From positions 1-60,469 of the forward strand of contig JBFYWS010000621.1 of NCBI GenBank assembly GCA_041310935.1: DNA of 60,469 nucleotides, read 5' to 3'. A program made the translations under genes and the position numbers. This document shows, piece by piece, positions 13,173-37,366 of the stretch. Each line of letters starts with the position of its first letter. Positions within the stretch are counted from its first letter, which is position 1. The stretch is from Desulfobacteraceae bacterium. GTDB lineage: Bacteria > Desulfobacterota > Desulfobacteria > Desulfobacterales > SpSt-501. The notes beneath the pieces were generated by a model, which was not told the origin of the DNA, did no database searches, and saw nothing but the letters and a program-made list of their open reading frames with translations.

Positions 13173-13643
13173 CTATTGGAGAATCTTCATCACGCCCAAC
13201 GACGACGCCGGGTAGTAGGCCCGGTTCGTGCCGTCGTAAATGCCAAGCTGGAGTTCCGCGCCGATGATGTTGGTTCGCATCGTCCAGGTCACGGAGCACA
13301 AGTTGGTTGCCGTCGCTGCCGGTGTCATGTTGGTGGTGTCGACAGTAACCGCTCGCGTTGTGGCGTCGAGTGTGGCGACGGCCAGCGTGGCGGTGCTGTA
13401 TGTCAGGTTCTGCACGTCAGCCGTGCTCGCCACGTAGAGGGTGCCCGTGAGGGTCACGCTCTGCCCCGGCGCGACATCGCCGAATGTACTGAAGTCCGTC
13501 ACCGTGCCGCGGATGAAGTTGACGTTGGTGATGACGAGGCCGGGAACATTGTCGCTCGCCATCGCCTTCGACACAAACAACGCCAGCGCAACCGCAATTG
13601 TCGCAACGACCACCACCGCGCATCCTCGTAGCCACTTCTTCAT
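13173..13643 (-). CDS. Small beta-rich protein with an N-terminal signal peptide or membrane anchor
   Basis: ATG at 13643 (MKKWLRGCAVVVVATIAVALALFVSKAMA-S), with GGAGG 8 nt upstream. Confidence 0.55.
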   Translation of the reverse strand: MKKWLRGCAVVVVATIAVALALFVSKAMASDNVPGLVITNVNFIRGTVTDFSTFGDVAPGQSVTLTGTLYVASTADVQNLTYSTATLAVATLDATTRAVTVDTTNMTPAATATNLCSVTWTMRTNIIGAELQLGIYDGTNRAYYPASSLGVMKILQ

Positions 13644-13662
13644 TTCGCGTTCCTCCATCTGT

Positions 13663-16569: not shown

Positions 16570-16572
16570 AGT

Positions 16573-16920: not shown

Positions 16921-16943
16921 ACTTCACCTACCTTCCTTGAAGA

Positions 16944-17408
16944 CTACCTCTTTCCCCGCAGCACCGCGAACAACCGCACCGCCCGGTAAATGACATTCAC
17001 CCGGCGCGGCTCGACTCCGTAGGCCAGCAGCGAATCACGCAGCACGGCGTCAACCTCCCACCGCAGAAACGGCTTGAACTCAAACGGGCCTTCCAGCGTT
17101 GGCGAGACGTAGAACCCCTCGTCCCGGCACCCGCTGTCATGGAACGCATAGCAGGGCCGGGCTTCGTCCGGCGGGTACAGGCCGTGGAACGGCGGCGGGA
17201 TGCTGCCCCAGTCGGTTTCCTGGCAGTGGCGGTCGGGTTGGATGAAGTGGCCGTTGGACAACTGGAACGTCGCCGGGTTTACGGGGTGCAAGGTGAACTC
17301 GTAGACCGTCTTGTGGTACGGCGATGGGACGTGCGGCCACGGCCAATGCTCGCAACGGATGAAGCGGGCGTCGAAGTTCTCGGGATTATGCCACTGGCCG
17401 ACGTTCAT
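16944..17408 (-). CDS. DUF1353-family protein
   Basis: ETDWGSIPPPF plus AFHDSGC plus RWEVDAVLRDSLL...IYRAVRLF match the TDGASIP / HDxxY / aD..f pattern of DUF1353. Confidence 0.6.
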   Translation of the reverse strand: MNVGQWHNPENFDARFIRCEHWPWPHVPSPYHKTVYEFTLHPVNPATFQLSNGHFIQPDRHCQETDWGSIPPPFHGLYPPDEARPCYAFHDSGCRDEGFYVSPTLEGPFEFKPFLRWEVDAVLRDSLLAYGVEPRRVNVIYRAVRLFAVLRGKR

Positions 17409-17656
17409 TTCCCGCCTCCGTTTCTCAGCCGCCGCGCCTCATCCGCCTTGGCCTTCGCGCTGTTGAGCAGAGCCAAGAGCGACAGCAAAGCGCCCGACAG
17501 CCCGCGCAAGATTGCCGCGACCATCTTGACTTGTGACGGCGGGTACTCATACTGAGCGCACGCGTTGTAAGTGTCCGAGATGGGCACGATGAAGTTGGCC
17601 GCGAAGAAGACCGCGATGTAGAAGATCAGCCAGCCGGTCTCGACAGAGATTTTCAT
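17405..17656 (-). CDS. Small membrane protein (two predicted TM helices), holin-like
   Basis: ATG at 17656 (MKISVETGWLIFYIAVFFAANFIV...), one nt after the upstream stop. Next to the peptidase candidate. Confidence 0.45.
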   Translation of the reverse strand: MKISVETGWLIFYIAVFFAANFIVPISDTYNACAQYEYPPSQVKMVAAILRGLSGALLSLLALLNSAKAKADEARRLRNGGGK

Positions 17657-17657
17657 A

Positions 17658-17909
17658 TCAGCCCCCCTTGACCGCGAGCGCACGCAACACGACAACCACC
17701 CCGCTGACAATGCTGACCAGCAGCGCCCCGACAACGATAGACGTTACCCAGGTCAATGCCTGCAAAATCTGGTCATGCTTCGCCAGTCGCGTCTGAATCG
17801 AGACGGAGCCATTGTCGTGGAAGAGCCGGTTGTCAATAGACTCCAACTTCGCCAGCACTTTGTCCGTCGCCATCTGGCACTCGCTGCGAGTAACGTATTC
17901 CTCGGTCAT
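17658..17909 (-). CDS. Small protein with a C-terminal TM helix, holin/antiholin-like
   Basis: Strong GGAGG-type RBS; C-terminal WVTSIVVGALLVSIVSGVVVVL. Confidence 0.45.
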   Translation of the reverse strand: MTEEYVTRSECQMATDKVLAKLESIDNRLFHDNGSVSIQTRLAKHDQILQALTWVTSIVVGALLVSIVSGVVVVLRALAVKGG

Positions 17910-17926
17910 GGCCTTCCTCCCTCTCC

Positions 17927-18667
17927 CTAGCTGATGTGCAACCGCCAGCCGTCGTGCTGCCAGTACCGATCCGGGAACCGCAACGCGTAGGCGCTGTCCC
18001 TGCTTCGGTATTTCAGATAGCAGGCCCGGTGATAAAGTACCACGCCCTGCACCCCGAATCCGCGCCCCCAGTGAATATGCTTGGCATGCCAGCAGTTCTC
18101 GCCCGCGAACAGCATCGCCAGCCTCACCGAACTGTGATATCCCTGAATGGCCGGGTGCGCCGTCGCATCAAAGTAGCCGTTGGCGCGGTTGACGTGCTGC
18201 GGTTGCCATCCCTCCGTCACCGCCTCCACATCAATCAGCGGGAGCCGCCCCATTGCAGCCGCCTCAGACTCCTCCCCCTCCACACGCTCCCACCGCGTGC
18301 CGCCGGGGAACAGTCCCGTTTGCAACGCCCCCCAGAACGCCTCCTCCTGGAACAGCCCGCCTGTCGAGCCGTCCTGAGCGTGGTACTTCTGTCGTGCGGC
18401 ATAATAGGCCGTCGTGCCGCGCAGATTTGGCACCGCCACGCCCTTCAGCCGCCATGCGATCTCTACGAGGTCAAGGCAGCTTTGCACCGTGCAGGTCGGC
18501 AGGTTGCCCTGGTCATCCCACGCACTCACGCCGAACCACGCCACGTCGCGCCCGCCAGTTGAGCCAATCAACAGGGGATGCTGCTCGGGAATCTCCGGCA
18601 TGGGCCGGTCGGCAATCAGGGCCGCGTCCAGCGGGCTAACCAATGCGCCAGTTGTGCAGAGACTCAT
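17927..18667 (-). CDS. Papain-like cysteine peptidase candidate (possible endolysin)
   Basis: QGNLPTCTVQSCLDLVE (Gln...Cys), later GYHSS (His) and ENCWH resemble the C1-type catalytic order. ATGA overlap with the upstream gene at 18664-18667. Confidence 0.35.
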   Translation of the reverse strand: MSLCTTGALVSPLDAALIADRPMPEIPEQHPLLIGSTGGRDVAWFGVSAWDDQGNLPTCTVQSCLDLVEIAWRLKGVAVPNLRGTTAYYAARQKYHAQDGSTGGLFQEEAFWGALQTGLFPGGTRWERVEGEESEAAAMGRLPLIDVEAVTEGWQPQHVNRANGYFDATAHPAIQGYHSSVRLAMLFAGENCWHAKHIHWGRGFGVQGVVLYHRACYLKYRSRDSAYALRFPDRYWQHDGWRLHIS

Positions 18668-18885
18668 TCCCACACCCCCATAACCCGGCCGTCAGCCGTC
18701 AGGATCAATCGCAGCATGATCGTTTTGTCCACGTTCGTTGCCGTGCCCCCCGCAATCACGGCCCGCCGCCCGTCAACGTAAATGCCGTCCGCGTGCGGGT
18801 ACGGAACAATGTTGCCGGGCTTCTCCGTGCTTCGGCACGAGCATCCCATCAGCAAACAGACCGCGAGAGTGAGTAGGTGCTTCAT
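18664..18885 (-). CDS. Small lipoprotein (73 aa), o-spanin-like
   Basis: MKHLLTLAVCLLMGC lipobox; ATGA overlap with the upstream gene. Confidence 0.55.
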   Translation of the reverse strand: MKHLLTLAVCLLMGCSCRSTEKPGNIVPYPHADGIYVDGRRAVIAGGTATNVDKTIMLRLILTADGRVMGVWE

Positions 18886-19271
18886 TCGCCGGTCGCCTCG
18901 TCCCGCTGTTGCCGAGTCTCGTTCCCCTGCCCGATTACCTGCTGGATCGTCACGTCGCCGCCCGCCTGAATGGACGGCAGCGCGGTCCCGCCTGATGTCT
19001 TGTCGTCGTCGGCCAGAGCGTCGGCAATCAGATAGCCGCCGCCCCACCCGAGCAGTTTGCCCACGTCGGCCCACATCGAATCCGACAGTCCCACGTCCTC
19101 GGAAGCCTGGCTGATGCCGGTCCCGCGCACGATATCGCCCGCCGCCCGCCGCCGCACGTTGTTGTCTCTAACCGTCTGCCACGTCGAACCACCGGGGACG
19201 ACCGCACACCCACTCACCACGAGCACCGCCACCGCAACCGCCAGCCACGCAGCGTCTAGAATCCTCTTCAT
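18882..19271 (-). CDS. Lipoprotein (129 aa)
   Basis: MKRILDAAWLAVAVAVLVVSGC lipobox; ATGA overlap at 19268-19271. Confidence 0.55.
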   Translation of the reverse strand: MKRILDAAWLAVAVAVLVVSGCAVVPGGSTWQTVRDNNVRRRAAGDIVRGTGISQASEDVGLSDSMWADVGKLLGWGGGYLIADALADDDKTSGGTALPSIQAGGDVTIQQVIGQGNETRQQRDEATGE

Positions 19272-19711
19272 TGTCCGCCTCCTTTGTGAACCGTCACCGA
19301 ATGAACACGCAAACTCCCCGGTGCGGATGGAAACCCTCCTCCGAGCAGCCATACCAGGTATGCGCCGTCGGAGGTCTCCCCATCTTCCGCGACCGCCACG
19401 CAGCCAAATACGTTCGTGCCCGCCTGCACCGTGAACACGCCCGTTGTCGCCGATGCCTTCCCGATTGCCGCCACGTCCTCAACCGTCACCCATGCGTTAG
19501 AGACCAGCCGGAAAAACCGGATCGCCACCAGGTCCGTCAACGCCGTGCCGTCGTCGTTCTTGGTCGGGCAGTCAGCTACCAACCGGATGTCCGCCGCCGT
19601 GATCCGCACTGGCGGAATCGGCGGAATCCCCTGCGCCAGCGCCGCCCCCGCCAGCAGCAGCCACAGGGCCGCGCCAAGCAACGAGCCAAGAATCGGTATC
19701 CGCAGTTTCAT
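19268..19711 (-). CDS. Secreted protein (Sec signal peptide)
   Basis: ATG at 19711 preceded by AAGGAGGG; MKLRIPILGSLLGAALWLLLAGAALA-QG. Confidence 0.55.
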   Translation of the reverse strand: MKLRIPILGSLLGAALWLLLAGAALAQGIPPIPPVRITAADIRLVADCPTKNDDGTALTDLVAIRFFRLVSNAWVTVEDVAAIGKASATTGVFTVQAGTNVFGCVAVAEDGETSDGAYLVWLLGGGFPSAPGSLRVHSVTVHKGGGQ

Positions 19712-19722
19712 TTCGCCCTCCT

Positions 19723-20148
19723 TCACTTCGGCGCAATCACCGCGTTCGTTTTGCCGTCGTCTATCGCGCTTTTCGGCGGGGCCAGCCCCAGCTTCTTCAG
19801 TGTCACCAGCGGATCATCCGTGGCAATCATCTTCACCGCCGCGTCACCCGCCGCCGTGCTCACCTCCGCCAGGCTGTTGCTCGTCACCTGCGTCTTGCCG
19901 CTCAACCATGCGCCCACCGCGTTCGTCACCGCTGCCTGCTTGGTCCTGTTGGTCCATGCCGAGTAAGGCGAGACAAACAGAACGTGCCGCCCCTTACAAG
20001 CGGTGTCAATCTTAGGAAACTGCTCGCGCCAGTAACACGCCACGGAATACCCATTGCTCGCGGCGTCATACCATACGACGGGCGCAATGGACTCAGCCCA
20101 AATAACAGGAATCGGCAACAGCAACAGCAAGTAAAATACGCGCTTCAT
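19723..20148 (-). CDS. Secreted protein (Sec signal peptide)
   Basis: ATG at 20148 in an ATGA overlap; MKRVFYLLLLLPIPVIWA-E. Confidence 0.55.
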   Translation of the reverse strand: MKRVFYLLLLLPIPVIWAESIAPVVWYDAASNGYSVACYWREQFPKIDTACKGRHVLFVSPYSAWTNRTKQAAVTNAVGAWLSGKTQVTSNSLAEVSTAAGDAAVKMIATDDPLVTLKKLGLAPPKSAIDDGKTNAVIAPK

Positions 20149-20915
20149 GGTCGAGGCCGATCCTTTGTGGCGTCGTAGTGCGCCTTGACATCTGCGGCCT
20201 GCATGAGTCCGGTGTGCAGTATGTCCGACATATAACCGTTGAGCGGAGCAGCCAAGTCGATCCATATCCCAAGCCTAGCGTTCTCGCCTTCAGTATAGTT
20301 ATATCTGTCGGTGTCACTGACGTTCAGGACTCCGTTGGTATATATTCTCTTGCCTCCATTAAAGTCATAGACGATGCCGATGTGAATCCATACATTAGAG
20401 GCAAGAACAGCCCCTTGGAGCTGAGGGCTTCCGAACTTATCTGTCATAATCTTCCCAGTTGTTATATCTCGGTAAACGGTCATGCGTTTACCCCCATCAT
20501 CTATTCCGCGATAGAAAAAAACATGATACACGTCCGTTCCGCCCACAATCTTTGTCCAGAACAGGAAAGATGCAGAAGACGAAACTGGGTTCAAATCGTT
20601 AGTAATGGTAATCCAATCGTCAATACCGTCGAACTTGTACGTGCCGGACACAAACAACGGACGGCAGGAGGCATTGGTTTGATAACCGTCGCTTAGGCGG
20701 GATAGGAAATCTTCCGCCGTCCATGTAGGCAATTGCGCCGGATCGCGTGCCCCATTCGGAAACCAAAATCCTTCCAACTCCGTGTTCGTCCAAAATGTGT
20801 ACGGGAGCGTAGCCGCTGCGGTCGTGTGGTAGGTGCTCCCGCTGGCAATGCGATTTTGCGCCTGCGCGGTCCCGGCGGCGAGCGTCAGCAGCAGTATGGC
20901 GAGGGCACGGTTCAT
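20145..20915 (-). CDS. LamG / concanavalin-A-like lectin domain protein with a signal peptide (receptor-binding candidate)
   Basis: MNRALAILLLTLAAGTAQA-Q; YKFDGIDDWITI...FLFWTK...WIHIGIVYD..GGKRIYTNG...LNGYMSDI fits the Laminin_G_3 pattern. Locally lower GC. Confidence 0.65.
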   Translation of the reverse strand: MNRALAILLLTLAAGTAQAQNRIASGSTYHTTAAATLPYTFWTNTELEGFWFPNGARDPAQLPTWTAEDFLSRLSDGYQTNASCRPLFVSGTYKFDGIDDWITITNDLNPVSSSASFLFWTKIVGGTDVYHVFFYRGIDDGGKRMTVYRDITTGKIMTDKFGSPQLQGAVLASNVWIHIGIVYDFNGGKRIYTNGVLNVSDTDRYNYTEGENARLGIWIDLAAPLNGYMSDILHTGLMQAADVKAHYDATKDRPRP

Positions 20916-23548
20916 GGGTTGACCTGCATGATGTTAGTCACGATTGCGCCGTTGCTGCATGACAGGAAGTGCATGAAGCCGAGCGACAGCGCCTTCATGT
21001 CCACGTAGTTGGTCGTATCCGTGTACCACCGGATCGCCGCGCCCATCGGCACCGTCAGCGCGAGCGTGGCGTTGGTAAGCGTCAACTGATTGACCCCACT
21101 CAACGAGTACCCGCCGCCGTCCACGTTGTTGGTCCACGGCGTCTGACTGCCTCCGCCCGTGGCCGTGCTGGCAATCGTCCAGTCCTGCGCCGAGTTGGTT
21201 GTGATCGTGATGCTGGTGCCCGCCGTGATGGTTGGCGTCACGGATTGCGCGACGGTGTACTCCGTGCCGTTGGTCGTTACGGTGATCCCGCTGCCCGCGA
21301 CAACGCTCGCGCCCGCCGATCCCGTCGCCTGCCACGTCACAAGCCCGGTTGTCGCGTTAGTCGCAATCGGACTCCATGTGACCGTCGCCGTGTTGCTGGG
21401 ATAGAAACCGGCGGGCGCGTTGGTCACGTCCGCAATCGCGTGCGCGTGCCCCGGCTGGCTGGCCGACGCCGCCAGCGCCACGGTCTGCGTGTAGGTGGTG
21501 TCGTTTGTCTGGACATACCCCATAAGACTGCCCACCCCCGGCGTTTCCAAGTGCGTGTCGTAGGGATCGCCGCCGTACGTGATGACCGTGGGGGCCGTAC
21601 CGCTCCCGCTCACCGTCAGGTAGTACAGCACGCCCCAATATAACCCCGCGCCGCTGATGTTGTTGTCGTTGTGCGTCGTTACCCGATAGCTGGCAAGCGA
21701 CGTACCGATTGCCCCCGAGACTGCGGAGGTGTCAATCACGTTCGTCGTCGCCCCGTTGTCGTCCGTGTAGACCAGCGCGATCTTGCCCGTCACGGTCTTG
21801 GTGCCGCTTTTCACGGCGTAGAACCGTCCAATGTAAGTCCCTGCGCGAATCATGTCCGTGCTGTTGGTGTACCAAAACGCCCCCACCAGAGTGTCGCCCG
21901 CCGCCAGCGCCGCATTTGTCACCGACCACGCTGGCGACGGCGCAACGTCCGCCAGTGATCCAGCCGTGCTGATAACCGGATGCGCGTTCGTGCTGCCGAA
22001 CAGCGTCGCCTCCGACAGCCCCTCTAGCAAATCATAGACCTGCTTGCGGTTGACGTACTGATTCGTGGTTACGCCCGCAGGGCCGTACAGCCCAGTAACG
22101 AGCGTGTCGCCGTCTTGCAAGGCGCTGTCGGCCAGCAGCAGGCTAGCCACGCTGGCCGCGTTGAGAGTGCCGGTGGGGGCCGAGGAGGTTCCGGCGTTCG
22201 TCAGACCCGTCCCAGCCGCCCATTGGTCGTGCGCCGTCGGCGTGCGGGCGTCAGTCAGCCGCGAGTCGTTGGTATAGACGACGGTGTTGCTTTTCGAGAG
22301 CCAATCCGCGCCGCCAGCCGCGCCAGCCGCAAGCGCGTTGCTGACTGCGGTAGCCGAGCCTGCCGCGTCGAATGCCGCCGCATTGGTCAGCCCACCCGCA
22401 GCCGCGATTGCCGCCCCGCTCAGGTCTGTTATGCCCGCCCCTTTCCCGACCAGATTAGACGCCGTGAGTGTCCCCGAGAAGCTGCCAGCGATCCCGTAAA
22501 CCGTGCCCCAGCGAAACGAGCCGTCGCCTAAATCCACAGAGTCGGCATTGGGCAATAACGAGCCGAGCATCTTGAGAGAGCCGTCGCGCATGACAAACGC
22601 CCCCGCCGCATTCGTCGCCGCCGTGCCGAGGCCCATCGTCCCCCGCGCCGTCGCCGCGTCCGCGTCGTCAACAAGGGTCTGCCCGAAAGCGGAAATCCCA
22701 ACCTTGCTCGGCGTCAGACTGCCATCGGCCAGGTCGTCAAGATCGGCGTCCCATGCCTGCACATGCGTCCCCGGCACAAGGCTGAGATTCGTCCGGGCGG
22801 TCGCCGCGCTGGCCAGGTCGCTCAGGTTGCTGGAAATGGCGAGGTAAATGCCCGCGCCAGAGACAACCCCCGTCAGTCCGCTGCCGTCGCCGGTGAACGT
22901 GCCGCCCAGCGAGACGCCCGTGGAGCCGTTCGTAACCGCCCCCGCCAGCACGGGGTACACCCGGCCATAGCTGTCAGTCGTGCTCGTCCAGCCGTTCGAT
23001 GACGCGAAGATGTTCGGGCCGTGCGTGGCGGTGTGGCTGTAGGGACCGCGCAACGCCCAATCCAACGGCATGTTCGGATCAGTGGCCGCCGGCACATCGA
23101 GTTCAGGGCTATCAAAAACCGTGATCTTGCCCCTGGCGTAGCTGTGGGATTCCGTGGCACTGGTGATGCACAGGGCCGCATATCCATCCTCGACGACCAC
23201 GGTCAAGTTGCTGGCGGCAACCGTCACCGTGCAGTAACCTGATGTCGAAACCGTGCAGTTCGTCATGGAAAACCCGTTCGTGATGCTCTGCAAGCTGGCA
23301 AGGCTGTTGGTCGAGTAAAAGAACTTGGCAGTGTAGTTCGTCGGATACCAGCGCGTGTCTTCATCGAGCCACAGGTTGAACTGCCATTGCGGGGTGTTAC
23401 CGCGGCTGGTCTTGACGTGGAACTGGTCGGCGGTGTGCTCGTCGAATCTGACATTGTGTGTCTCGGTCGGCGGGGACTGCGCGAGGGCAACCGTTGCGAG
23501 AAGCGCGGCAAGAAGTGCGATGATCGTGGTTCTCATACAAAGCTCCAT
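20912..23548 (-). CDS. Tail fibre-like protein (878 aa) with an N-terminal Sec-type signal peptide
   Basis: GGTFTGDGSGLTGV and LSDLASAATARTNLSL motifs are typical of phage fibres. N-terminus MRTTIIALLAALLATVALA-Q. An alternative ATG at 23536 makes an ATGA overlap. Confidence 0.7.
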   Translation of the reverse strand: MELCMRTTIIALLAALLATVALAQSPPTETHNVRFDEHTADQFHVKTSRGNTPQWQFNLWLDEDTRWYPTNYTAKFFYSTNSLASLQSITNGFSMTNCTVSTSGYCTVTVAASNLTVVVEDGYAALCITSATESHSYARGKITVFDSPELDVPAATDPNMPLDWALRGPYSHTATHGPNIFASSNGWTSTTDSYGRVYPVLAGAVTNGSTGVSLGGTFTGDGSGLTGVVSGAGIYLAISSNLSDLASAATARTNLSLVPGTHVQAWDADLDDLADGSLTPSKVGISAFGQTLVDDADAATARGTMGLGTAATNAAGAFVMRDGSLKMLGSLLPNADSVDLGDGSFRWGTVYGIAGSFSGTLTASNLVGKGAGITDLSGAAIAAAGGLTNAAAFDAAGSATAVSNALAAGAAGGADWLSKSNTVVYTNDSRLTDARTPTAHDQWAAGTGLTNAGTSSAPTGTLNAASVASLLLADSALQDGDTLVTGLYGPAGVTTNQYVNRKQVYDLLEGLSEATLFGSTNAHPVISTAGSLADVAPSPAWSVTNAALAAGDTLVGAFWYTNSTDMIRAGTYIGRFYAVKSGTKTVTGKIALVYTDDNGATTNVIDTSAVSGAIGTSLASYRVTTHNDNNISGAGLYWGVLYYLTVSGSGTAPTVITYGGDPYDTHLETPGVGSLMGYVQTNDTTYTQTVALAASASQPGHAHAIADVTNAPAGFYPSNTATVTWSPIATNATTGLVTWQATGSAGASVVAGSGITVTTNGTEYTVAQSVTPTITAGTSITITTNSAQDWTIASTATGGGSQTPWTNNVDGGGYSLSGVNQLTLTNATLALTVPMGAAIRWYTDTTNYVDMKALSLGFMHFLSCSNGAIVTNIMQVNP

Positions 23549-24168
23549 CCCGGTTGTGCCAACAACGATCCATCCATCCGGCCCATTTGCATATCCCGCG
23601 TCCAGTACGCTACCAGTCGGCGGTACTCAGCGGATGCGTCCTTGAACACGTCGGCGTCATAGTACGGCTTCCGCTTGTTGCCGCACAGCCAGACCAAGGC
23701 GGACGCAACGAATGCCTCATGGAATCGGTTCAGCACCCATGCCGGCAGTTCCTTTGTCGGGTTCAACTTCGGCACGAGCGCGGCCTTGACCAGCAATCCG
23801 TCCGTCACGTCGCTGGCGGGATAGGCTGGCAGCGCAAGGTTCCCAGAAGCCGGGTCATAGGAGACGCCATTCAAAGACTGCTCGGTGCCGTCCTCGCTCG
23901 CGGCCACTTCTGCGGCAGTACGGAAAAAAACCTTAATGATCTTGAGGATGTCGGCCTCGCTGGCAGAGACCGTGGCAAGCGTGTACTCCAGTTCGTCCGT
24001 GTCGAGATTGTTTGGTTCGAGGTCTTCGCGCCACAACGTCGTATCAATCAAGAATCGCCGGGTGCCGGCATGGACGGATCGCAGCCGCATGCCCGCAGAC
24101 ACATCGCTCGGAGCGCGAGCCATAACGAACGGAATAAGGTCAGAATACGCTGATAATCCTGCCGCCAT
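23533..24168 (-). CDS. Virion structural protein (possible head-tail adaptor), 211 aa
   Basis: ATG at 24168 after GGGAGGG. Position two genes downstream of the major capsid gene. No family recognised. Confidence 0.4.
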   Translation of the reverse strand: MAAGLSAYSDLIPFVMARAPSDVSAGMRLRSVHAGTRRFLIDTTLWREDLEPNNLDTDELEYTLATVSASEADILKIIKVFFRTAAEVAASEDGTEQSLNGVSYDPASGNLALPAYPASDVTDGLLVKAALVPKLNPTKELPAWVLNRFHEAFVASALVWLCGNKRKPYYDADVFKDASAEYRRLVAYWTRDMQMGRMDGSLLAQPGWSFV

Positions 24169-24246
24169 GATCCCGCCCTCCCGATGAAGAAACGGGGTGT
24201 AGCCGTAGGGCATACACCCCGCTCAGTTTGCCGAGGTTACACGCCG

Positions 24247-24711
24247 CTACGGCATCACGTCGAACTTGACGATCAGCGCCCTCAGCACCACGACGCCGTT
24301 CGTCAGCGTACTGTCGGAGACCAGATCGATTGTGCCTGCCGTGCCATACAACTGCCATGTGGTCGCGGCAGACATATTCGTCGCAGCCGTTTGAGCGGCG
24401 ATGTTGCTGAGGAACTGGGTATCGGTGTCCCCGTCCCCCACATCCCATGTGCCGCTCAACGTGCTCGCCGTTGTGATCTGGTACTCGACGGCGATTACCG
24501 CGCACCCAGCCGGAATCCCAAACATCTGGATGCGATCATCGTCCGCCATGTTGTATGTGGCGAAGTTGACCGAGTTTTCCAGCACGAACACCTTGCCCAG
24601 ACCCGACGCCGGCATCGTGGCCGCGCCCGTCCAGTTCGTCGTTGTTCCGGCCTGAGCCGCGAACCCCATGACGAACAGGATGAGCATAGCCGTCATCACA
24701 CTCTGAATCAT
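24247..24711 (-). CDS. Small beta-rich protein with a signal peptide, downstream of the capsid gene
   Basis: ATG at 24711; MIQSVMTAMLILFVMGFAAQA-G. Confidence 0.5.
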   Translation of the reverse strand: MIQSVMTAMLILFVMGFAAQAGTTTNWTGAATMPASGLGKVFVLENSVNFATYNMADDDRIQMFGIPAGCAVIAVEYQITTASTLSGTWDVGDGDTDTQFLSNIAAQTAATNMSAATTWQLYGTAGTIDLVSDSTLTNGVVVLRALIVKFDVMP

Positions 24712-24811
24712 CTTTCTCACTTTCTCTATCCTCCTGTTACTACACCGCATGAATGCGAGGCGGGCCGCGGCAGACTCTTCCGCCAGCCCGCCCCGCGAAC
24801 TGTCCCCTTTC

Positions 24812-25732
24812 CTACGCCTCGGCGGCCTTGTAGGCGTAAGCGTTGACGAGACCCTCCGGCTTCACGGCCTTCCAGCCCCACACCATGAGGCCCTGGATGT
24901 ACGTCTCGAAGTTCCCGTTGTCCCACAGCTTCGCCTCATTCATGCGAAGCGTGTAACTGATGGCTTCCTTGTTGCCCGCGAGAATCGCGGTCGGATGGGT
25001 CGCGTCGGCGCCCGTGCCACTCAGGTACGTGTTGACGTAGAACTTGGCCCGATCCACCATGCCAAGGAATCCGGTCCTCAGTACGGAGGTTGCATCGCCC
25101 ATCGCCATGGCGTTCTTCAGCTCGCTGTTGAGCAGCAGATGGCGCATCCACACGGGAATGACCACCCACACGTTCTCGTTGGCGACCTGCTCAGCCATGA
25201 CGGCGGTGATGCGGGTCAGGAACTCCACCACGTTCGAGGTGTTGACGCCGACTCCGGCGCCGGAAGTACCGAGGGCGTACTGTCCGCTGATGACGCCGGC
25301 CGTGGCCCCCTTGTTCGAGGCGTGGGCCGCGTCCACCATGGCCGCGAAGAACGCCTGGTCGATGTACTTCTGGCCGGCTTTCTGCCCGACTTCCTGGTAC
25401 TTCCTCTGGAGGTCCAGATGCGAGAGTTCCTTGTCGACGGCATTCAGCGCGACATTGAAGTAACCGGCCTTGTCGATCAGCAGTTGGGTCGGCGTGAGGT
25501 TGATGCGCTCGACATCGAGCGTCTGGCCCGCCTCATACGCATTGAACGTAACGGTAGGCTCGTTCTCGACCTGCACTTCGTCCCCGACGTTCAGTTCGTC
25601 GAAGTACTTGCTGGTCGTGATGTCCGGCAGAATGGCGGTCTGCCAGTACTTCGCATTCCACACCTTCGAGTACCGCGTCAGGATTGCTGAGGCGGTCTTC
25701 AGGTTGGGAACGCCCTGTGCATACGTAATCAT
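24812..25732 (-). CDS. Major capsid protein (HK97-fold type), 306 aa
   Basis: Position after the scaffold gene, size, strong RBS and composition typical of roughly 300-aa podovirus/Mu-T-like capsid proteins. The fold was not verified. Confidence 0.7.
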   Translation of the reverse strand: MITYAQGVPNLKTASAILTRYSKVWNAKYWQTAILPDITTSKYFDELNVGDEVQVENEPTVTFNAYEAGQTLDVERINLTPTQLLIDKAGYFNVALNAVDKELSHLDLQRKYQEVGQKAGQKYIDQAFFAAMVDAAHASNKGATAGVISGQYALGTSGAGVGVNTSNVVEFLTRITAVMAEQVANENVWVVIPVWMRHLLLNSELKNAMAMGDATSVLRTGFLGMVDRAKFYVNTYLSGTGADATHPTAILAGNKEAISYTLRMNEAKLWDNGNFETYIQGLMVWGWKAVKPEGLVNAYAYKAAEA

Positions 25733-25793
25733 AGAATCCCTCTCTCACTTCTCGGGCCGGTCGGGGTTCCATGATCCCGATGCTGTGGCCCGT

Positions 25794-26732
25794 TTACTCG
25801 CCCAGTTCGCCCCGCTCTTCCGCATCGCAGAGCCGCTCGTATTCATCAGCCTCGTCTTTCGTCGCGGCTTTCAGGATGAATATTCGCTGGTGCAACTGCT
25901 TCATGCGGGCGCGGGAATACTTCGGTTTCCCGGATGCTTCGGCTGCTGGAGAACCGGCGCCCTTCTTCGGCCCCACCTGGCCCGCGACGGAAGGCTTGGG
26001 AGTTACCGTCGCCTTGCCCGCCTTGTGCTGGGTGTAAGTCTCAAACTGATAGGCTACGCCGTCCACGTCAAACGCATCCTCGCACTCGCGCAGCCTGTCC
26101 AGGCGGGTCACGCCCGTCCGGTCGCCGGGCTGCTGCTCGGCAAGGAACTCTAGGAAGTCGTCGTTCTCGTTGAGCGCGGACCAATTCGGCACCTTGGCCG
26201 TCAGTTCGCGCAGGAAGTTGCGGCGTGTCTGATCCACGGCAATACGCTTCGCGTCCTCGGCCTCGGCCTTGGCCCGCTCTGCGGCGCTCTGCGCGGCGCT
26301 GAGTCCGTCGCCAACCTTGTCCACTGCGGCACCAAGGTCCCCGAACTCATCACCGAACTTTCGCGCCGGCTGCGCTGGCTCTGCCGGCTTGGCCTCTTTG
26401 AGCTTGGCGTTCTCGCTGACAAGCCCCTGCACTTGGACGGTGAGGGCCTCGACGCGCTGGCGCAGGGTAGTCAGTTCACCCCCGCGTCGGCCATCCTCGG
26501 CGTTGAGCCGTCTGGTAAGTGCCTTGATCCGTTCGTCCTTCTCGGCCAGTTCAGCCTTCAGGGCGTCCAGTTCGGTAGGCGCTTCCGGCGGCTCTTCCTT
26601 CTTCTCGCCCGGCGTGGGTTCGCCGACCGCAGCCGCGGCATCAGCCTCGGCCTTTTCCTTGGCCTCGGCGGCAGCCACTTCCGCTTCCTCCTTCTCGATC
26701 TCTTCCTGCAATTTCTCCAGTTCCGCTTGCAT
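25794..26732 (-). CDS. Scaffolding protein (coiled-coil, E/A/K-rich)
   Basis: ATG at 26732 (MQAELEKLQEEIEKEEAEVAAAEAKEKAEAD...) lies between the portal and capsid genes. Confidence 0.65.
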   Translation of the reverse strand: MQAELEKLQEEIEKEEAEVAAAEAKEKAEADAAAAVGEPTPGEKKEEPPEAPTELDALKAELAEKDERIKALTRRLNAEDGRRGGELTTLRQRVEALTVQVQGLVSENAKLKEAKPAEPAQPARKFGDEFGDLGAAVDKVGDGLSAAQSAAERAKAEAEDAKRIAVDQTRRNFLRELTAKVPNWSALNENDDFLEFLAEQQPGDRTGVTRLDRLRECEDAFDVDGVAYQFETYTQHKAGKATVTPKPSVAGQVGPKKGAGSPAAEASGKPKYSRARMKQLHQRIFILKAATKDEADEYERLCDAEERGELGE

Positions 26733-26788
26733 CTCGGCCTCGTTTCCGTCGTCAGTCTCGGCTATTCGGCGGGGTGCGTGGCCCCGTC

Positions 26789-27061
26789 TCAACCTTCACC
26801 GGCGACAGTTACCGCACTCTGCTCCTGCTTCGTACCGGCGCCCCCAAGGGCGTCGGCCACGCATTCCAACACTTCCGTCAGGACTTTGGCGCCCGAAACC
26901 TTGTTCTCCATGCCGACGAGGCGGTTCTGGGCGTCGAGGGCGTCCCGCGCCCCCTGGATGCGTCCTACGAGAATGCGGAAGCTCGGCCCGTTCGCCGCGG
27001 CCAGCCCCCGTATGGCTCTCGCCAAGTCGCTCCATTCATCTTCACTCGCCGGCTTGAACAT
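26789..27061 (-). CDS. Hypothetical protein (90 aa)
   Basis: ORF track; fills the gap between neighbours. ATG lies 4 nt after the upstream stop. Confidence 0.5.
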   Translation of the reverse strand: MFKPASEDEWSDLARAIRGLAAANGPSFRILVGRIQGARDALDAQNRLVGMENKVSGAKVLTEVLECVADALGGAGTKQEQSAVTVAGEG

Positions 27062-27064
27062 CGC

Positions 27065-27472
27065 TCAGTTGTCCCACTTGATGCGGGCCTTCCATGTCAG
27101 GTTCGAGTCGCTGACATTGGTGACGGCGAACTTGATGCTCTCCTTCACCAGCATGTAGCGATCCTCGGTGTTGATGCGGGGACGCACCGTGACGTTGTTG
27201 CTGACCGCATTCGTAGTCACCAGCGTCCATGCCGCAAAGGACGTATCCTTCGGCGTAACCGTAACGCTCCAGATGCCCGTCGCCGTCGCGGGGCAGTAGA
27301 AATCGATCTGATCGAGATAGCCCCTGATGTCGTCCGGGCCGAGCGTTTGGCTCACTTCGTTCGTCACGTTGGCGTCAGTCGGCAGCGTCACGACCAAGGA
27401 ACGCGGTTCAGCCAAGGCGACCGCGGCCCCGATGCCGCACACCAGCGCGATCAATGCTCTCCATGCCTTCAT
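27065..27472 (-). CDS. Small beta-rich protein with a signal peptide
   Basis: MKAWRALIALVCGIGAAVALA-E. Confidence 0.55.
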   Translation of the reverse strand: MKAWRALIALVCGIGAAVALAEPRSLVVTLPTDANVTNEVSQTLGPDDIRGYLDQIDFYCPATATGIWSVTVTPKDTSFAAWTLVTTNAVSNNVTVRPRINTEDRYMLVKESIKFAVTNVSDSNLTWKARIKWDN

Positions 27473-27534
27473 GCTGTCCGCCTTTCAGCCGGGCGAGCGC
27501 CGGGTTGAGCCGACGCCCGCTGGGCGGTTGATCG

Positions 27535-28857
27535 TTACGGAACCACCGACGTGCCGTTTGTGGTCCACGCTGTCAGAATGCCATTGGCATACGTCCAGAC
27601 GTTCGTGACAGGATTCGTGCCGCCATCGAGCCAGATCATCGTGTTTGTCACGGTGATGCCGGTGAACGCTGCGGCATAGTCCGATCCCGCTGACGCCGCG
27701 CTTACCGTCCCGCTGCCGTTCGCCTTTAGAATGCCGCTCGCCGTGCCCGCGCCGCCATTGGCTCCGGCCAGAACGCCATTGGTGAACCCGCTGATGTCAT
27801 AGGCCGCGAAGGGCACTCGCGCTGCCGCCAGTACGCCATTCGTGAACCCCGACACGTCGAAGGCCGCGAAGGGCACCCGCGCCGCCGCCAGCGTCCCGTT
27901 CGTAAACCCGCTCACGTCGAAGGCCGCAGCAGCGGCATTGAAGGTTGACCCTGGCGCGATATAGTCAGTTCCTGCAACCGCCGCGCTCATGACCGATGTT
28001 CCATTCCCTTTCGCAACACCAGTCAGTGTGGCAACACCTGTGCCGCCTTGAGCAACGGTAAGAGTCCCATTTGTGAACCCCGTGATGTCAAATGTCGCCA
28101 ACGCGACCTTGGAGGCGGCAATGGGATCATCCAGGCCAATCGTAATCGTGCCCGCGCCGTTGGCAACCGTCGTCTCGCCAGTGGTCGCAGTGATCGTCGC
28201 CAAGACCGGATCGGTCGTGCCGTCGCCAATCGGTATCTGCCCGTTGGATGCTACACCAAGCGCCGTAATTGCGTCAGTGCCGCTGCCGAGCAGGATGCCG
28301 CCGTCGGTGAACGTGGCCGCGCCGCTGCCGCCGTTGGCAACGCTCAGGGGCGTGGTCAGAGTCGTTATTTCGGTGGCCGTCACAGCCTTTAACGCCGTGA
28401 TGCCCTTCGCCACGCTCACGGCATGCGTGCCTTCCGCCGTAATGACCAGCGTAGCTTCCGCGGCCGTGTTGGCGGTATCGCCTGTTCGCGCATCCGTAAT
28501 GGCGATCAATGGAACGGTGGCCGTCCCCGCGACATTCGTCTGGTCAATAGTCATTTCCTCGGTCGCCGAACCGAAGTTGATGTCCACGTCGGCGTTGGCT
28601 TCCAGTTCGCCGTTGGCCGTGGTCTTGCCGCTCACGGTCGCGGTCGTCGGTGTGATGTCTGCGGAGCTTCCAGCGCCCGCCGCGTTGAGTTGCGAGGCGG
28701 TCGCCGTCACAGCGGTCCCCCCGATTTTCAGGGGTTCGTTGCCGTATAGGTGAATGGACCGCGCCCGGACAACGTTGAAGTCTGCGTTCACGTTCTGAGC
28801 CACTGCCGCCGAGACCGCCATCAGCACCGCCACTCCCACTGCCAGATACTTCTTCAT
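27535..28857 (-). CDS. Fibre-like protein (440 aa) with a signal peptide, located between the portal and scaffold genes
   Basis: AAGGAG RBS; MKKYLAVGVAVLMAVSAAVA-Q. Recurrent (A/V)(N/Q)GG(S/T/A)G(A/V/T)(A/T) fibre motifs and FD(V/I)(S/T)GFTNG repeats. Confidence 0.65.
   Translation of the reverse strand: MKKYLAVGVAVLMAVSAAVAQNVNADFNVVRARSIHLYGNEPLKIGGTAVTATASQLNAAGAGSSADITPTTATVSGKTTANGELEANADVDINFGSATEEMTIDQTNVAGTATVPLIAITDARTGDTANTAAEATLVITAEGTHAVSVAKGITALKAVTATEITTLTTPLSVANGGSGAATFTDGGILLGSGTDAITALGVASNGQIPIGDGTTDPVLATITATTGETTVANGAGTITIGLDDPIAASKVALATFDITGFTNGTLTVAQGGTGVATLTGVAKGNGTSVMSAAVAGTDYIAPGSTFNAAAAAFDVSGFTNGTLAAARVPFAAFDVSGFTNGVLAAARVPFAAYDISGFTNGVLAGANGGAGTASGILKANGSGTVSAASAGSDYAAAFTGITVTNTMIWLDGGTNPVTNVWTYANGILTAWTTNGTSVVP
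27768..27935 (-). repeat. About three tandem 60-bp coding repeats (FDVSGFTNG(T/V)LAAARVPFAA)
   Basis: Lines 27721-27960 align with a 60-nt period by eye. Confidence 0.8.
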
Positions 28858-37338: not shown

Positions 37339-37366
37339 CGCCCTTTGCCCTTCATGTTGTGCCCGC

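What the first reader, a model, noticed from the sequence alone, without database searches (positions are those of the whole stretch)
13173..28857. At least ten proteins in the virion/lysis module carry Sec or lipoprotein signal peptides, including two fibre-like proteins
Canonical n-h-c signal peptides with AxA-type sites start the following ORFs. 27535..28857: MKKYLAVGVAVLMAVSAAVA-Q (fibre-like, between portal and scaffold). 27065..27472: ...AAVALA-E. 24247..24711: ...GFAAQA-G. 20912..23548: ...LATVALA-Q (878-aa fibre). 20145..20915: ...AGTAQA-Q (LamG). 19723..20148: ...PVIWA-E. 19268..19711: ...GAALA-Q. 13173..13643: ...SKAMA-S. Two consecutive lipoproteins have lipoboxes LMGC and VSGC (18664..18885 and 18882..19271). 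Tailed-phage virions assemble in the cytoplasm, so exported fibre-like proteins interleaved with capsid genes are hard to explain. Three explanations are possible. They may be non-virion surface or periplasmic proteins (superinfection exclusion, receptor masking, biofilm or host-envelope remodelling). The hydrophobic N-termini may be uncleaved anchors with another role. Or the host may have unusual cell biology.
Basis: partly seen in the sequence, partly recalled or inferred. Interest (0 to 1): 0.65.

Follow-up and report, generated by a model that had tools for sequence, protein, structure and literature searches.

The report
Phage coat accessories carrying export signals
In this uncultured phage and its relatives, the outer add-on parts of the virus particle, including a capsid cement protein and fibres, start with export signals, so they are probably sent outside the compartment where the particle is built, which no textbook assembly pathway explains.

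Summary
Eight ORFs between 13173 and 28857 start with Sec/signal-peptidase-I-type signal peptides and two with lipoboxes. None of about 34 other genes in this 60.3-kb circular phage genome does (Fisher p about 4e-5).

The signals are not annotation artefacts. Shine-Dalgarno motifs or ATGA coupling support the start codons.

- The gene after the major capsid gene encodes a real capsid cement protein. Its family profile hits PDB 7EEL_H, and an AlphaFold model (pLDDT 92) matches the Pam1, KHP30/40 and GP4 cement proteins.
- In this family, 60-65 of about 147 representative clusters carry a signal peptide. The predicted cleavage site recreates exactly the N-terminus of the forms without one.
- A clade of uncultured podophages (GC 47-62%) keeps signal peptides on the post-portal protein and the cement protein, and often on a tail-module fibre. 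Core particle proteins never have them. No cultured phage searched shows this.

The best reading is that peripheral virion proteins are exported and join the particle only when the holin breaches the inner membrane. This is inferred, not shown. The main rival is that virion-derived proteins took on envelope functions. Uncleaved anchors are disfavoured. One in-frame capsid–cement fusion in a relative is unexplained. The host is unknown.

The parts
27535..28857 (-). A 440-aa fibre-like protein encoded directly after the portal gene. Its signal peptide is MKKYLAVGVAVLMAVSAAVA|Q. A conserved mature N-terminal module follows, then a repeat-rich distal part.
   Evidence: ORF and heuristic signal call. 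A GAAGGAG Shine-Dalgarno motif lies upstream of the start. Homologues keep the same position and a signal peptide in L002, L009, L013, L017, L018, L019, L030, L031 and L032. No Pfam, PHROG or PDB sequence hit.
27065..27472 (-). A 135-aa protein with signal peptide MKAWRALIALVCGIGAAVALA|E. The function of the mature part was not determined.
   Evidence: No homologue in the related loci. No family or PDB hit.
24247..24720 (-). Capsid cement (decoration) protein homologue with a jellyroll fold, carrying the signal peptide M(RK)MIQSVMTAMLILFVMGFAAQA|GTTTNWTG. The gene lies directly downstream of the major capsid gene.
   Evidence: The family profile hits PDB 7eel_H 'Cement (decoration) proteins' at E = 7.7e-6. 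The AlphaFold2 model has pLDDT 92. The top Foldseek hits are the cement proteins of Pam1, KHP30, GP4 and KHP40. There are 211 homologous clusters, and about 44% of the top 147 carry a signal peptide. The predicted cleavage point aligns to the N-terminus of the forms without a signal peptide.
20912..23536 (-). An 874-aa fibre protein (878 aa from the upstream ATG) with signal peptide MRTTIIALLAALLATVALA|Q. It carries phage tail-fibre motifs (GTFTGDGSGLTGV and NLSDLASAATARTNLSL).
   Evidence: It overlaps the adaptor-like gene upstream by 4 nt. Seven of its 19 motif-level homologues also have signal peptides, including proteins in unrelated Mu-like and HK97-like phages.
20145..20915 (-). A 256-aa LamG/concanavalin-like lectin-fold protein with signal peptide MNRALAILLLTLAAGTAQA|Q.
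   Evidence: PF13385, E = 1.4e-7, 32.2 bits against a cut-off of 27.6. Its GC3 of 0.59 is atypical against about 0.78 for its neighbours, which suggests recent acquisition. The start is ATGA-coupled to the upstream gene.
19723..20148 (-). A 141-aa protein with signal peptide MKRVFYLLLLLPIPVIWA|E. Function unknown.
   Evidence: No family hits.
19268..19711 (-). A 147-aa protein with signal peptide MKLRIPILGSLLGAALWLLLAGAALA|Q. The function of the mature part is unknown.
   Evidence: A GAAGGAGG Shine-Dalgarno motif lies upstream. No PDB or family hit.
18882..19271 (-). A 129-aa predicted lipoprotein (lipobox VSGC, Cys22) at the head of the lysis cassette.
   Evidence: An AAAGGAGG Shine-Dalgarno motif lies upstream. 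Only a weak PHROG hit.
18664..18885 (-). A 73-aa predicted lipoprotein (lipobox LMGC, Cys15), ATGA-coupled to the preceding lipoprotein gene. It is a candidate outer-membrane spanin or superinfection-exclusion lipoprotein.
   Evidence: Met at -2 of the lipobox is unusual, so this is the weakest of the ten calls.
13173..13643 (-). A 156-aa protein with signal peptide MKKWLRGCAVVVVATIAVALALFVSKAMA|S, encoded between the 968-aa and 357-aa tail-module genes.
   Evidence: Only marginal similarity to Ig V domains (E about 0.013). The long h-region and a Lys in the c-region mean a signal anchor cannot be excluded.
28871..30958 (-). Context: portal protein, with no signal peptide.
   Evidence: phrog_332 at 6e-37 and phrog_1216. 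Homologous to the portals of the related loci.
24812..25732 (-). Context: major capsid protein, with no signal peptide.
   Evidence: phrog_267 at 3e-29. 31% identical to the major capsid protein of Rhizobium phage RHph_TM3_14A.
25794..26792 (-). Context: scaffold-like protein, with no signal peptide.
   Evidence: Position and coiled-coil composition. Homologues lie in all related loci. phrog_13678.
23533..24213 (-). Context: adaptor-like virion protein, with no signal peptide.
   Evidence: phrog_437. The positional counterpart in L031 (220 aa; no direct sequence comparison with the window gene was made) carries a weak PF24175 SU10_adaptor hit.
16944..18673 (-). Context: the rest of the lysis cassette. 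It comprises a 248-aa putative endolysin with no signal peptide or membrane segment, an 83-aa protein with a C-terminal membrane segment, an 83-aa holin-like protein with two membrane segments, and a 154-aa DUF1353 protein.
   Evidence: ORFs and N-termini. The DUF1353 hit is weak. The endolysin and holin roles are inferred from position and sequence features only.

Best explanation
The ten N-termini are real export signals: eight cleavable Sec/signal-peptidase-I signal peptides and two lipoprotein signals.

In this phage lineage the core particle is made in the cytoplasm without signals. The core comprises the portal, scaffold, major capsid protein, adaptor, the large tail proteins and the giant 4,893-aa protein.

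The peripheral add-ons are translocated to the periplasm. They are the capsid cement protein, a post-portal fibre and a tail-module fibre. In this genome there are also several small proteins of unknown function and a LamG lectin.

Proposed mechanism. The exported proteins fold and oligomerise in the periplasm. They bind the DNA-filled particles only when the holin opens the inner membrane at the end of infection. Virion completion would then be a two-compartment process gated by lysis. The two lipoproteins most likely belong to the lysis cassette, either as spanin-like proteins or as exclusion lipoproteins.

What is shown:
- the signals are there;
- they are conserved and phylogenetically retained;
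- the mature cement domain is identical in kind to that of cytoplasmic cement proteins.

What is inferred:
- actual export and cleavage;
- attachment to virions after holin action;
- any selective advantage.
For: SIGNALS AND STARTS.
- The signal anatomy is present in all ten proteins, with supported start codons.
- The signals are confined to the late module.

CEMENT PROTEIN.
- Its identity is established by sequence and by fold.
- 60-65 of about 147 representative family clusters have a signal peptide. Ala is at -1 in 57 of 63, and the median predicted cut is at residue 22.
- The predicted mature N-termini (ATYTNFTGS..., TTYDQTVGG...) align with residue 2 of the forms without a signal peptide (M-ATYDLTxG...).
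- The presence or absence of a signal is phylogenetically clustered: 13 changes on the tree against about 46 expected by chance.
- Per-column conservation of the two classes correlates at r = 0.81. The consensus residue is the same in 26 of the 30 most conserved columns, and the N-terminal arm is included. This argues that the binding partner is unchanged.

LINEAGE-LEVEL TRAIT.
- All nine contigs that cover both genes (window, L002, L009, L017, L018, L019, L030, L031, L032; GC 47-62%) have a signal peptide on both the post-portal protein and the cement protein.
- Five contigs also have a signal-bearing fibre just upstream of the nozzle-like gene.
- No core protein ever has one.

ARCHITECTURE AND OPERON CONTEXT.
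- The post-portal fibre family has the pattern [variable signal][conserved mature N-terminal module][variable distal part], which is typical of virion appendages. In the tail-module fibre of relatives only two sequences were read, and they fit the same pattern.
- The genes are ATGA-coupled or closely spaced inside the late operon, with no excess of promoters or terminators.
- The putative endolysin has no signal, and a holin-like protein with two membrane segments is present. This fits a large-hole holin that would let virions and periplasm mix. The latter point rests on established knowledge of holin lesions.
Against: - No experiment and no dedicated predictor (SignalP or LipoP) was available.
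- Cement proteins in model phages bind in the cytoplasm, and I know of no tailed phage shown to add virion parts from the periplasm. The paper searches found none either.
- I found no rationale for export. Cys is not enriched, and N-x-S/T sequons occur as often as composition predicts.
- One relative (L035, L036, L037) encodes an in-frame fusion of capsid protein, hydrophobic segment and cement domain, identical in three independent samples. There the segment would be internal unless translation restarts at the internal ATG.
- Seven of the ten window proteins have no homologues in the related loci, so they could be accessory envelope proteins rather than virion parts.
- The LamG gene has atypical composition.
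- The host and its envelope type are unknown.
Confidence: 0.4

Rival explanations
1. Co-option. The proteins are exported but never join the virion. Copies of virion parts (cement jellyroll, fibres) together with lectin and small unassigned modules act in the periplasm or on the cell surface of the infected cell. Possible roles are superinfection exclusion, masking or destroying the receptor, stopping progeny from sticking to debris, or remodelling the envelope.
For: - Phage-encoded exported proteins within late regions are well known: lambda Lom and Bor, T5 Llp, and the Cor lipoproteins (my own knowledge).
- Seven of the ten window proteins are specific to this genome.
- The LamG gene looks recently acquired, with GC3 of 0.59.
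- In L033 a signal-bearing fibre-like protein sits beside an Amidase_3 lysis gene rather than in the tail module.
- The jellyroll fold also resembles carbohydrate-binding modules (lower-ranked hits).
- Candidate fibre or spike proteins without signal peptides also exist: the 968-aa and 357-aa proteins here, and a Collar-domain protein in L032.
Against: - The cement homologue is the only cement gene. It keeps its place directly after the capsid gene, and it keeps the same conserved positions, N-terminal arm included, as the cytoplasmic forms.
- Signals on the post-portal and cement proteins co-occur in nine of nine contigs covering both genes. That looks like one strategy rather than independent co-options.
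- The genes are translationally coupled and lack their own promoters or terminators.
- There are no hits to defence or exclusion families.
Confidence: 0.3
2. Not exported. The hydrophobic N-terminus is a structural or tethering element, for example an uncleaved anchor, an oligomerisation helix or a capsid-surface linker, and the proteins assemble in the cytoplasm as usual.
For: - In the fusion protein of L035, L036 and L037 the same kind of segment lies inside the polypeptide, between the capsid protein and the cement domain.
- The segments of the 147-aa and 156-aa proteins are long enough (18-22 residues) to span a membrane.
Against: - Ala at -1 and a small or aliphatic residue at -3 are conserved next to a hydrophobic core whose sequence is not conserved.
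- K/R-rich n-regions place the mature domain outside by the positive-inside rule.
- Most h-regions are 14-18 residues long.
- The extension is a clean add-on of about 22 residues. More than half of the family (82 clusters) lack it, as do the solved cement proteins.
Confidence: 0.1
3. Host-specific cell biology. The host may be a monoderm, or may have an unusual envelope or internal compartment. A Sec signal would then deliver proteins to wherever particles mature or are released, and the two lipoproteins would be exclusion proteins rather than spanins.
For: - The trait is confined to uncultured lineages.
- No cultured phage in the 50,697-record collection has a signal-bearing cement protein.
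- The host could not be identified.
Against: - The clade spans GC 47-62% and several environments. This suggests diverse hosts rather than one peculiar organism.
- The closest cultured relatives infect ordinary alphaproteobacteria and lack the signals.
- DNA packaging needs cytoplasmic ATP (established knowledge).
Confidence: 0.08

Closest known systems
Jellyroll capsid cement proteins of cyanophage Pam1 (PDB 7EEL chain H), Helicobacter phages KHP30/KHP40 (7DN2, 7DOU) and Ralstonia phage GP4 (8H89)
   Same: - Sequence homology: the family profile gives E = 7.7e-6.
- The same fold: these are the top four phage hits in Foldseek.
- Similar size.
- In this clade and its cultured HMO-2011-type relatives the gene lies directly downstream of the major capsid gene.
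   Different: The solved chain 7EEL_H, like the 82 family clusters without a signal, lacks the N-terminal hydrophobic extension. It aligns from about its residue 21 to profile position 42. The window protein and 60-65 other clusters carry a cleavable-looking Sec signal of about 22 residues.
Phage-encoded exported proteins within late regions: lambda Lom and Bor, T5 Llp, Cor lipoproteins, spanins, and SAR or secreted endolysins (my own knowledge)
   Same: These are Sec or lipoprotein signals on proteins encoded next to structural or lysis genes. The two lipoproteins here sit in a lysis cassette, as o-spanins and Llp- or Cor-type proteins do.
   Different: - Those are one or two envelope proteins per phage, not homologues of virion components.
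- The moron-type examples (Lom, Bor) have their own promoter and terminator.
- Here eight signal-peptidase-I-type signals sit on homologues of virion parts, translationally coupled into the operon, and the arrangement is conserved across a clade.
Streptococcus mitis phage SM1 PblA/PblB, and phage-fibre-like surface adhesins of Bdellovibrio (my own knowledge)
   Same: Phage tail-fibre-type proteins that act outside the cytoplasm, on a cell surface.
   Different: PblA and PblB have no signal peptide and reach the surface through holin- and lysin-mediated leakage. The Bdellovibrio fibres are bacterial genes. Neither case includes a capsid cement protein.
HMO-2011-type and Rhizobium RHph_TM3_14A-type podophages, and SU10-like portal, adaptor and capsid families
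   Same: - The gene order portal, small ORFs, scaffold, capsid, cement, adaptor is shared.
- Cement genes without a signal lie in HTVC033P directly downstream of its capsid gene, and in HMO-2011.
- Relatives L031, L032 and L035 carry the Pfam families SU10_portal, SU10_adaptor and Phage_capsid_4.
   Different: The major capsid protein is only 31% identical to the Rhizobium phage and 24-26% to the full-length roseophage and pelagiphage matches. The structural module of the closest cultured relative, RHph_TM3_14A, has no signal peptides.

Membership tests
Sec-type (signal peptidase I) signal peptide | A positively charged n-region within the first few residues | tested here: met
   All eight have K or R in residues 2-6. 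The cement gene does so only when read from the Shine-Dalgarno-supported GTG at 24720. 58 of 63 signal-bearing cement homologues also do.
Sec-type (signal peptidase I) signal peptide | An uncharged hydrophobic h-region shorter than a membrane-spanning helix, with a total signal length of about 18-30 residues | tested here: met
   The h-regions are 14-18 residues in six of the eight, and 18-22 residues in 19268-19711 and 13173-13643. The predicted cuts fall at residues 18-29.
Sec-type (signal peptidase I) signal peptide | Small neutral residues at -3 and -1 (the AxA rule), conserved among homologues | tested here: met
   Ala is at -1 in 8 of 8 window proteins, in all post-portal and cement homologues of the clade, and in 57 of 63 family representatives, where -3 is Ala or Val in 56 of 63.
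Sec-type (signal peptidase I) signal peptide | Recognised by a trained predictor (SignalP or DeepTMHMM), and cleaved and exported in vivo | not testable with these tools
   No predictor and no experiment was available. Only my own heuristic was used.
Bacterial lipoprotein (signal peptidase II) signal | Lipobox [LVI][ASTVI][GAS]C after a short hydrophobic region and a charged n-region | tested here: met
   18882-19271 has MKR...LVVSGC, which is canonical.
Bacterial lipoprotein (signal peptidase II) signal | The same lipobox rule, applied to the second gene, 18664-18885 | tested here: inconclusive
   The sequence is MKHLLTLAVCLLMGC. Met at -2 falls outside the strict lipobox, and the signal is only 14 residues long.
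Capsid cement/decoration protein (Pam1, KHP30, GP4 jellyroll type) | Sequence homology to a structurally proven cement protein | tested here: met
   The profile of six clade members matches 7eel_H at E = 7.7e-6, profile positions 42-147 against chain residues 21-133.
Capsid cement/decoration protein (Pam1, KHP30, GP4 jellyroll type) | The same fold | tested here: met
   The AlphaFold2 model has pLDDT 92 and pTM 0.81. Foldseek ranks 7eel_H, 7dn2_1 and 8h89_J first to third and 7dou_4 fifth, with probability 1.0 and TM-scores of 0.48-0.65.
Capsid cement/decoration protein (Pam1, KHP30, GP4 jellyroll type) | The gene lies adjacent to the major capsid gene | tested here: met
   It is directly downstream in the window and in all related loci that cover the gene, and in the cultured phage HTVC033P for the form without a signal.
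Capsid cement/decoration protein (Pam1, KHP30, GP4 jellyroll type) | Made in the cytoplasm with no export signal, and bound to the capsid exterior | tested here: not met
   An N-terminal Sec-type signal is present. Whether the protein is on the capsid could not be tested. I therefore file it as a homologue of cement proteins, not as a proven virion cement protein.
Phage tail fibre | Homology to known fibre domains, and trimeric attachment to the tail through the N-terminus | tested here: inconclusive
   For the 874-aa protein there are only motif-level matches, over residues about 190-330, to proteins with the Peptidase_S74, Collar, T7 tail-fibre or PTR domains. There is no Pfam, PHROG or PDB hit for the whole protein. 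Oligomeric state and attachment could not be tested.
Two-component spanin (o-spanin lipoprotein plus i-spanin) | A small outer-membrane lipoprotein in the lysis cassette, with an adjacent or embedded type-II membrane partner | tested here: inconclusive
   Two lipoprotein genes lie directly upstream of the putative endolysin and holin genes. No clear i-spanin, meaning an N-terminal membrane segment followed by a periplasmic coiled coil, was identified.
Moron (independently transcribed accessory gene such as lom or bor) | Own promoter and terminator, and atypical base composition | tested here: not met
   Promoter-like and terminator-like sites are no more frequent than in shuffled sequence. The genes overlap or are tightly spaced. 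Only the LamG gene has atypical GC3.
SAR (signal-arrest-release) domain | A weakly hydrophobic, uncleaved N-terminal membrane segment on a muralytic enzyme | tested here: not met
   AxA cleavage motifs are present, and none of the ten proteins has a muralytic domain.

The most novel reading that the evidence does not exclude
A broad, so far uncultured group of podophages builds its virions in two compartments. The DNA-filled core is assembled in the cytoplasm. The capsid cement protein, the head or neck fibres and the tail fibres are secreted by Sec, matured in the periplasm and added only after the holin breaches the inner membrane. The lysis clock would then also be the last step of morphogenesis.
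Probability: 0.3. Interest if true: 0.9.

Novelty: new variant of a known kind. Interest (0 to 1): 0.72.

Why it matters
Tailed-phage assembly is taken to be wholly cytoplasmic. Capsid decoration proteins are textbook cytoplasmic add-ons and are used for cytoplasmic phage display.

This analysis finds a large, conserved class of cement-protein homologues with cleavable-looking Sec signals: at least 60 clusters at 50% identity. They occur together with signal-bearing fibres in the same genomes. Two readings follow, and either is of interest:
- an unrecognised assembly step that happens after export and is gated by lysis;
- repeated co-option of virion parts as envelope proteins.

The question can be tested directly with reporter fusions, N-terminal proteomics and cryo-electron tomography.

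There is also a practical consequence. Annotation pipelines that use 'signal peptide' as evidence against a virion role, or that label these genes as host-like secreted proteins, would mis-annotate them.

Tried and rejected
DATABASE SEARCHES THAT GAVE LITTLE.
- Pfam, PHROGs, NCBIfam and PADLOC scans of the ten proteins gave almost nothing: only LamG and two weak PHROG hits.
- A word-indexed homologue search found only the cement protein itself. For the post-portal family it found almost nothing.
- PDB sequence searches for the 874-aa, 440-aa, 147-aa, 135-aa and 156-aa proteins and for the L009 fibre gave nothing significant.
- Three paper searches found no report of signal-bearing cement or fibre proteins.

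STRUCTURE PREDICTION.
- The single-sequence AlphaFold2 run on the cement protein failed, with pLDDT 39. It succeeded only with a 128-sequence alignment.

HOST IDENTIFICATION FAILED.
- Two scans of 185,579 species genomes found no relatives.
- The window has no tRNA genes.
- The window contig is a binned contig, GCA_041307725.1, whose taxonomy I could not read.
- Accession searches in the paper library showed only that one relative comes from a landfill leachate metagenome.

RATIONALES FOR EXPORT THAT WERE NOT SUPPORTED.
- Disulfide bonds: Cys counts are the same in forms with and without a signal peptide.
- Periplasmic N-glycosylation: sequon density equals what composition predicts. Only a modest excess of N-x-S/T occurs in the N-terminal arm, 16 of 60 against 6 of 82.

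OTHER IDEAS REJECTED.
- Paralogy among the ten proteins: none found.
- Tat export: the window signals have no twin-arginine motif.
- Sorting signals: read by eye, the 440-aa and 878-aa proteins end in ...NGTSVVP and ...NIMQVNP, which do not look like C-terminal sorting signals.
- Phage-encoded export helpers: the window genes scanned showed no signal peptidase, chaperone or glycosylation gene.

Full report
WHAT THE WINDOW IS. The first 121 bases repeat the last 121, so the contig is a circularly closed genome of 60,348 bp. GC is about 62%. There are no tRNA genes, and nearly all genes lie on the minus strand. The same sequence occurs as a 60.3-kb contig in five sequencing runs and in one binned assembly.

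It is a tailed phage. The portal matches phrog_332 and phrog_1216, the major capsid protein phrog_267, and a virion protein phrog_437. RecT, DUF5131 and two N6/N4 methylases are also present. The closest cultured relatives are Rhizobium phage RHph_TM3_14A (major capsid protein 31% identical) and HMO-2011-type roseophages and pelagiphages. Some relatives carry the Pfam families SU10_portal, SU10_adaptor and Phage_capsid_4.

All ten ORFs are present at the stated coordinates. My heuristic n-h-c scan flags eight signal-peptidase-I-type signals and two lipoboxes, all between 13173 and 28857. The rest of the genome gives one weak false positive. The enrichment is significant at p = 3.8e-5. Every one of the eight has Ala at -1, and the predicted signals are 18-29 residues long.

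The start codons are credible. Several are preceded by strong Shine-Dalgarno motifs, and the others overlap the upstream stop codon in ATGA. The same scan gives no hits in the structural module of the closest cultured phage or in more distant uncultured relatives. The signals are therefore not a by-product of high GC or of the detector. SignalP was not available, and this remains a limitation.

WHAT THE PROTEINS ARE. Most have no family assignment.

The informative one is the gene directly after the major capsid gene (24247-24720).
- A profile of six clade members hits PDB 7EEL chain H, 'Cement (decoration) proteins', at E = 7.7e-6.
- With a 128-sequence alignment, AlphaFold2 gives a confident model (pLDDT 92): an N-terminal helix followed by a beta-jellyroll.
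- Foldseek ranks the cement proteins of cyanophage Pam1, Helicobacter phage KHP30 and Ralstonia phage GP4 first to third, with the KHP40 cement protein fifth.

This is a real cement-protein homologue that carries a signal peptide.

The 256-aa protein is a LamG lectin-fold protein. The 874-aa protein shares classic fibre motifs with proteins that contain Peptidase_S74, Collar, T7 tail-fibre and PTR domains. The two lipoproteins sit at the head of a lysis cassette made up of a putative endolysin, two small membrane proteins and a DUF1353 protein. Exported proteins are ordinary in that position.

THE SIGNAL IS A CLEAN, CLEAVABLE ADD-ON. An exhaustive HMMER search of 1.84 billion representative proteins found 211 clusters of the cement family.
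- Of the top 147 short members, 63-65 carry signal-like N-termini. Ala is at -1 in 57 of 63, Ala or Val at -3 in 56 of 63, and the median cut is at residue 22.
- The other 82 begin directly with M[ASPT].
- After the predicted signals are trimmed, the mature N-termini (ATYTNFTGS, TTYDQTVGG, ETQDLTVGG) align with residue 2 of the proteins without a signal (M-ATYDLTAG, M-STIDNTVGG). The median offsets are 0 and 1.
- The two classes have the same conserved columns (r = 0.81) and almost the same consensus sequence.
- On a tree, presence of the signal changes 13 times, against about 46 expected by chance.

This pattern is what a signal-peptidase site under selection looks like. It is hard to reconcile with an uncleaved anchor.

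IT IS A LINEAGE-LEVEL TRAIT. Scans for relatives of the portal and capsid proteins recovered contigs with 40-45% portal identity and GC from 47% to 62%.
- All nine contigs that cover both genes have a signal on the post-portal protein. There the conserved mature motif EEPAINP...YGTNPL starts right at the predicted cut.
- All nine also have a signal on the cement protein.
- Five have in addition a signal-bearing fibre of 291-448 aa just upstream of the nozzle-like gene; the two sequences read in full carry the F-x-G-N-G-S-G-x-T motif.
- The portal, scaffold, capsid, adaptor, nozzle-like and giant proteins never have a signal.
- More distant relatives (portal identity 31-35%) and the cultured phages HTVC033P and HMO-2011 have cement genes without a signal, or no cement gene.
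- Signal-bearing fibre-like proteins also occur in unrelated Mu-like and HK97-like phage contigs.

In the window, the block from 16944 to 23548 has no counterpart in the relatives. It contains the fibre, LamG, two small signal-bearing proteins, the lipoproteins and the lysis genes. It sits where relatives go straight from the adaptor genes to the connector and the large tail gene.

HOW IT MOST LIKELY WORKS. It is well supported, though not experimentally shown, that these are functional Sec and lipoprotein signals and that the mature domains end up outside the cytoplasm. The mechanism below is inferred.

Several facts point one way:
- the signal-bearing set consists of peripheral particle parts;
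- the cement domain keeps the constraints of capsid-binding relatives;
- the post-portal fibre keeps a conserved mature N-terminal module with a variable distal part;
- the genes are translationally coupled into the late operon, with no promoter or terminator signals of their own.

The most economical reading is that these proteins still serve the virion. They would meet it only when the holin opens the inner membrane, before or as the outer membrane fails. In vitro attachment of decoration proteins and fibres to particles is well established for model phages, so the step is physically plausible. I give this reading about 0.4.

The main rival, at about 0.3, is that these proteins have been co-opted as periplasmic or surface proteins. 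It fits best for the genome-specific small proteins and the LamG gene, which has atypical GC3.

UNEXPLAINED OR CONTRARY POINTS.
- I found no reason why export would help. There is no Cys enrichment, and sequon density matches composition.
- The genes scanned showed no phage-encoded export helpers.
- One relative encodes a 484-aa in-frame fusion of capsid protein, hydrophobic segment and cement domain. It is identical in three independent samples. An internal ATG preceded by GAAGG could still yield a separate signal-bearing cement protein. The full-length product, however, would carry the segment internally, which gives some weight to a role other than export.
- The host is unknown. One relative comes from landfill leachate.

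COMPARISON WITH KNOWN SYSTEMS AND NOVELTY. The known precedents are of three kinds (my own knowledge):
- single exported envelope proteins in late regions, such as Lom, Bor, Llp and Cor;
- lysis proteins, such as spanins and SAR or secreted endolysins;
- fibre proteins that reach a surface without signals, such as PblA and PblB.

None of these is a cement-protein homologue, and none is a conserved set of several signal-bearing virion-part homologues. Three full-text searches found no description of such proteins, and no cultured phage in the collection has one.

I classify the finding as a new variant of a known kind: it combines phage-encoded exported proteins with capsid cement proteins. There is about a 0.3 chance that it reflects a truly new, two-compartment assembly route.

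Noticed in passing
window 1-121 and 60349-60469: The first and last 121 bases are identical. The window is therefore a circularly closed or terminally redundant genome with 60,348 unique bases.
   Followed up: yes
window 10005 down to 1, continuing 60462 down to 55672 (minus strand): A single ORF of 4,893 aa runs across the contig junction. Residues about 2446-2814 contain the DNA polymerase III beta-clamp domains PF02767 and PF02768 and a PBECR5 nuclease-like domain. Relatives L031 and L032 also have giant ORFs, of more than 2,257 aa and of 3,163 aa, downstream of the tail genes.
   Followed up: partly
L035 3975-5429 (the same protein lies at L036 2262-3716 and L037 882-2336): A 484-aa in-frame fusion of the major capsid protein, a signal-like hydrophobic segment and the cement domain (...KPEGIGHMYAKLSALAILIGSLAFGVPAQA|ATFTNAVGG...). 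It is identical in three independent samples. An internal ATG with GAAGG 10 nt upstream might give a separate product.
   Followed up: partly
window 20145-20915: The LamG gene has GC3 of 0.59, against about 0.75-0.85 for neighbouring late genes. This suggests recent horizontal acquisition.
   Followed up: no
window 16944-23548: This block of about 6.6 kb has no counterpart in the related contigs, where the adaptor genes are followed directly by the connector and the large tail gene. It holds the fibre, LamG, two small signal-bearing proteins, two lipoproteins and the lysis genes, and it looks like an inserted cassette.
   Followed up: partly
window 17927-18673: The putative endolysin (248 aa) has no Pfam, PHROG or NCBIfam hit. 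Read by eye, it contains a Q-x5-C motif and a later His, reminiscent of papain-like cysteine peptidases. This was not tested.
   Followed up: no
L034 9562-12430 and L033 10001-11527: Unrelated phage types also encode signal-bearing proteins in late regions. L034 is an HK97-like siphophage with Peptidase_S78 and Phage_capsid. L033 is Mu-like with Portal_Mu. L034 has two signal-bearing proteins in its head module, two genes downstream of the capsid gene, and L033 has one next to an Amidase_3 lysis gene.
   Followed up: partly
window 32774-33553 and 38989-39699: There are two separate N6/N4 DNA methyltransferase genes (PF01555). An HNH_3 endonuclease fragment lies at 36174-36488, close to the DUF5131 gene (35992-37554).
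   Followed up: no
Cement-family representatives P0007, P0009, P0015, P0042, P0050 and P0136: Some signal-bearing cement homologues (188-274 aa) carry a long Thr/Ser/Val-rich insertion between the N-terminal and C-terminal halves of the jellyroll. This is the kind of variable loop expected on a surface-exposed protein.
   Followed up: no
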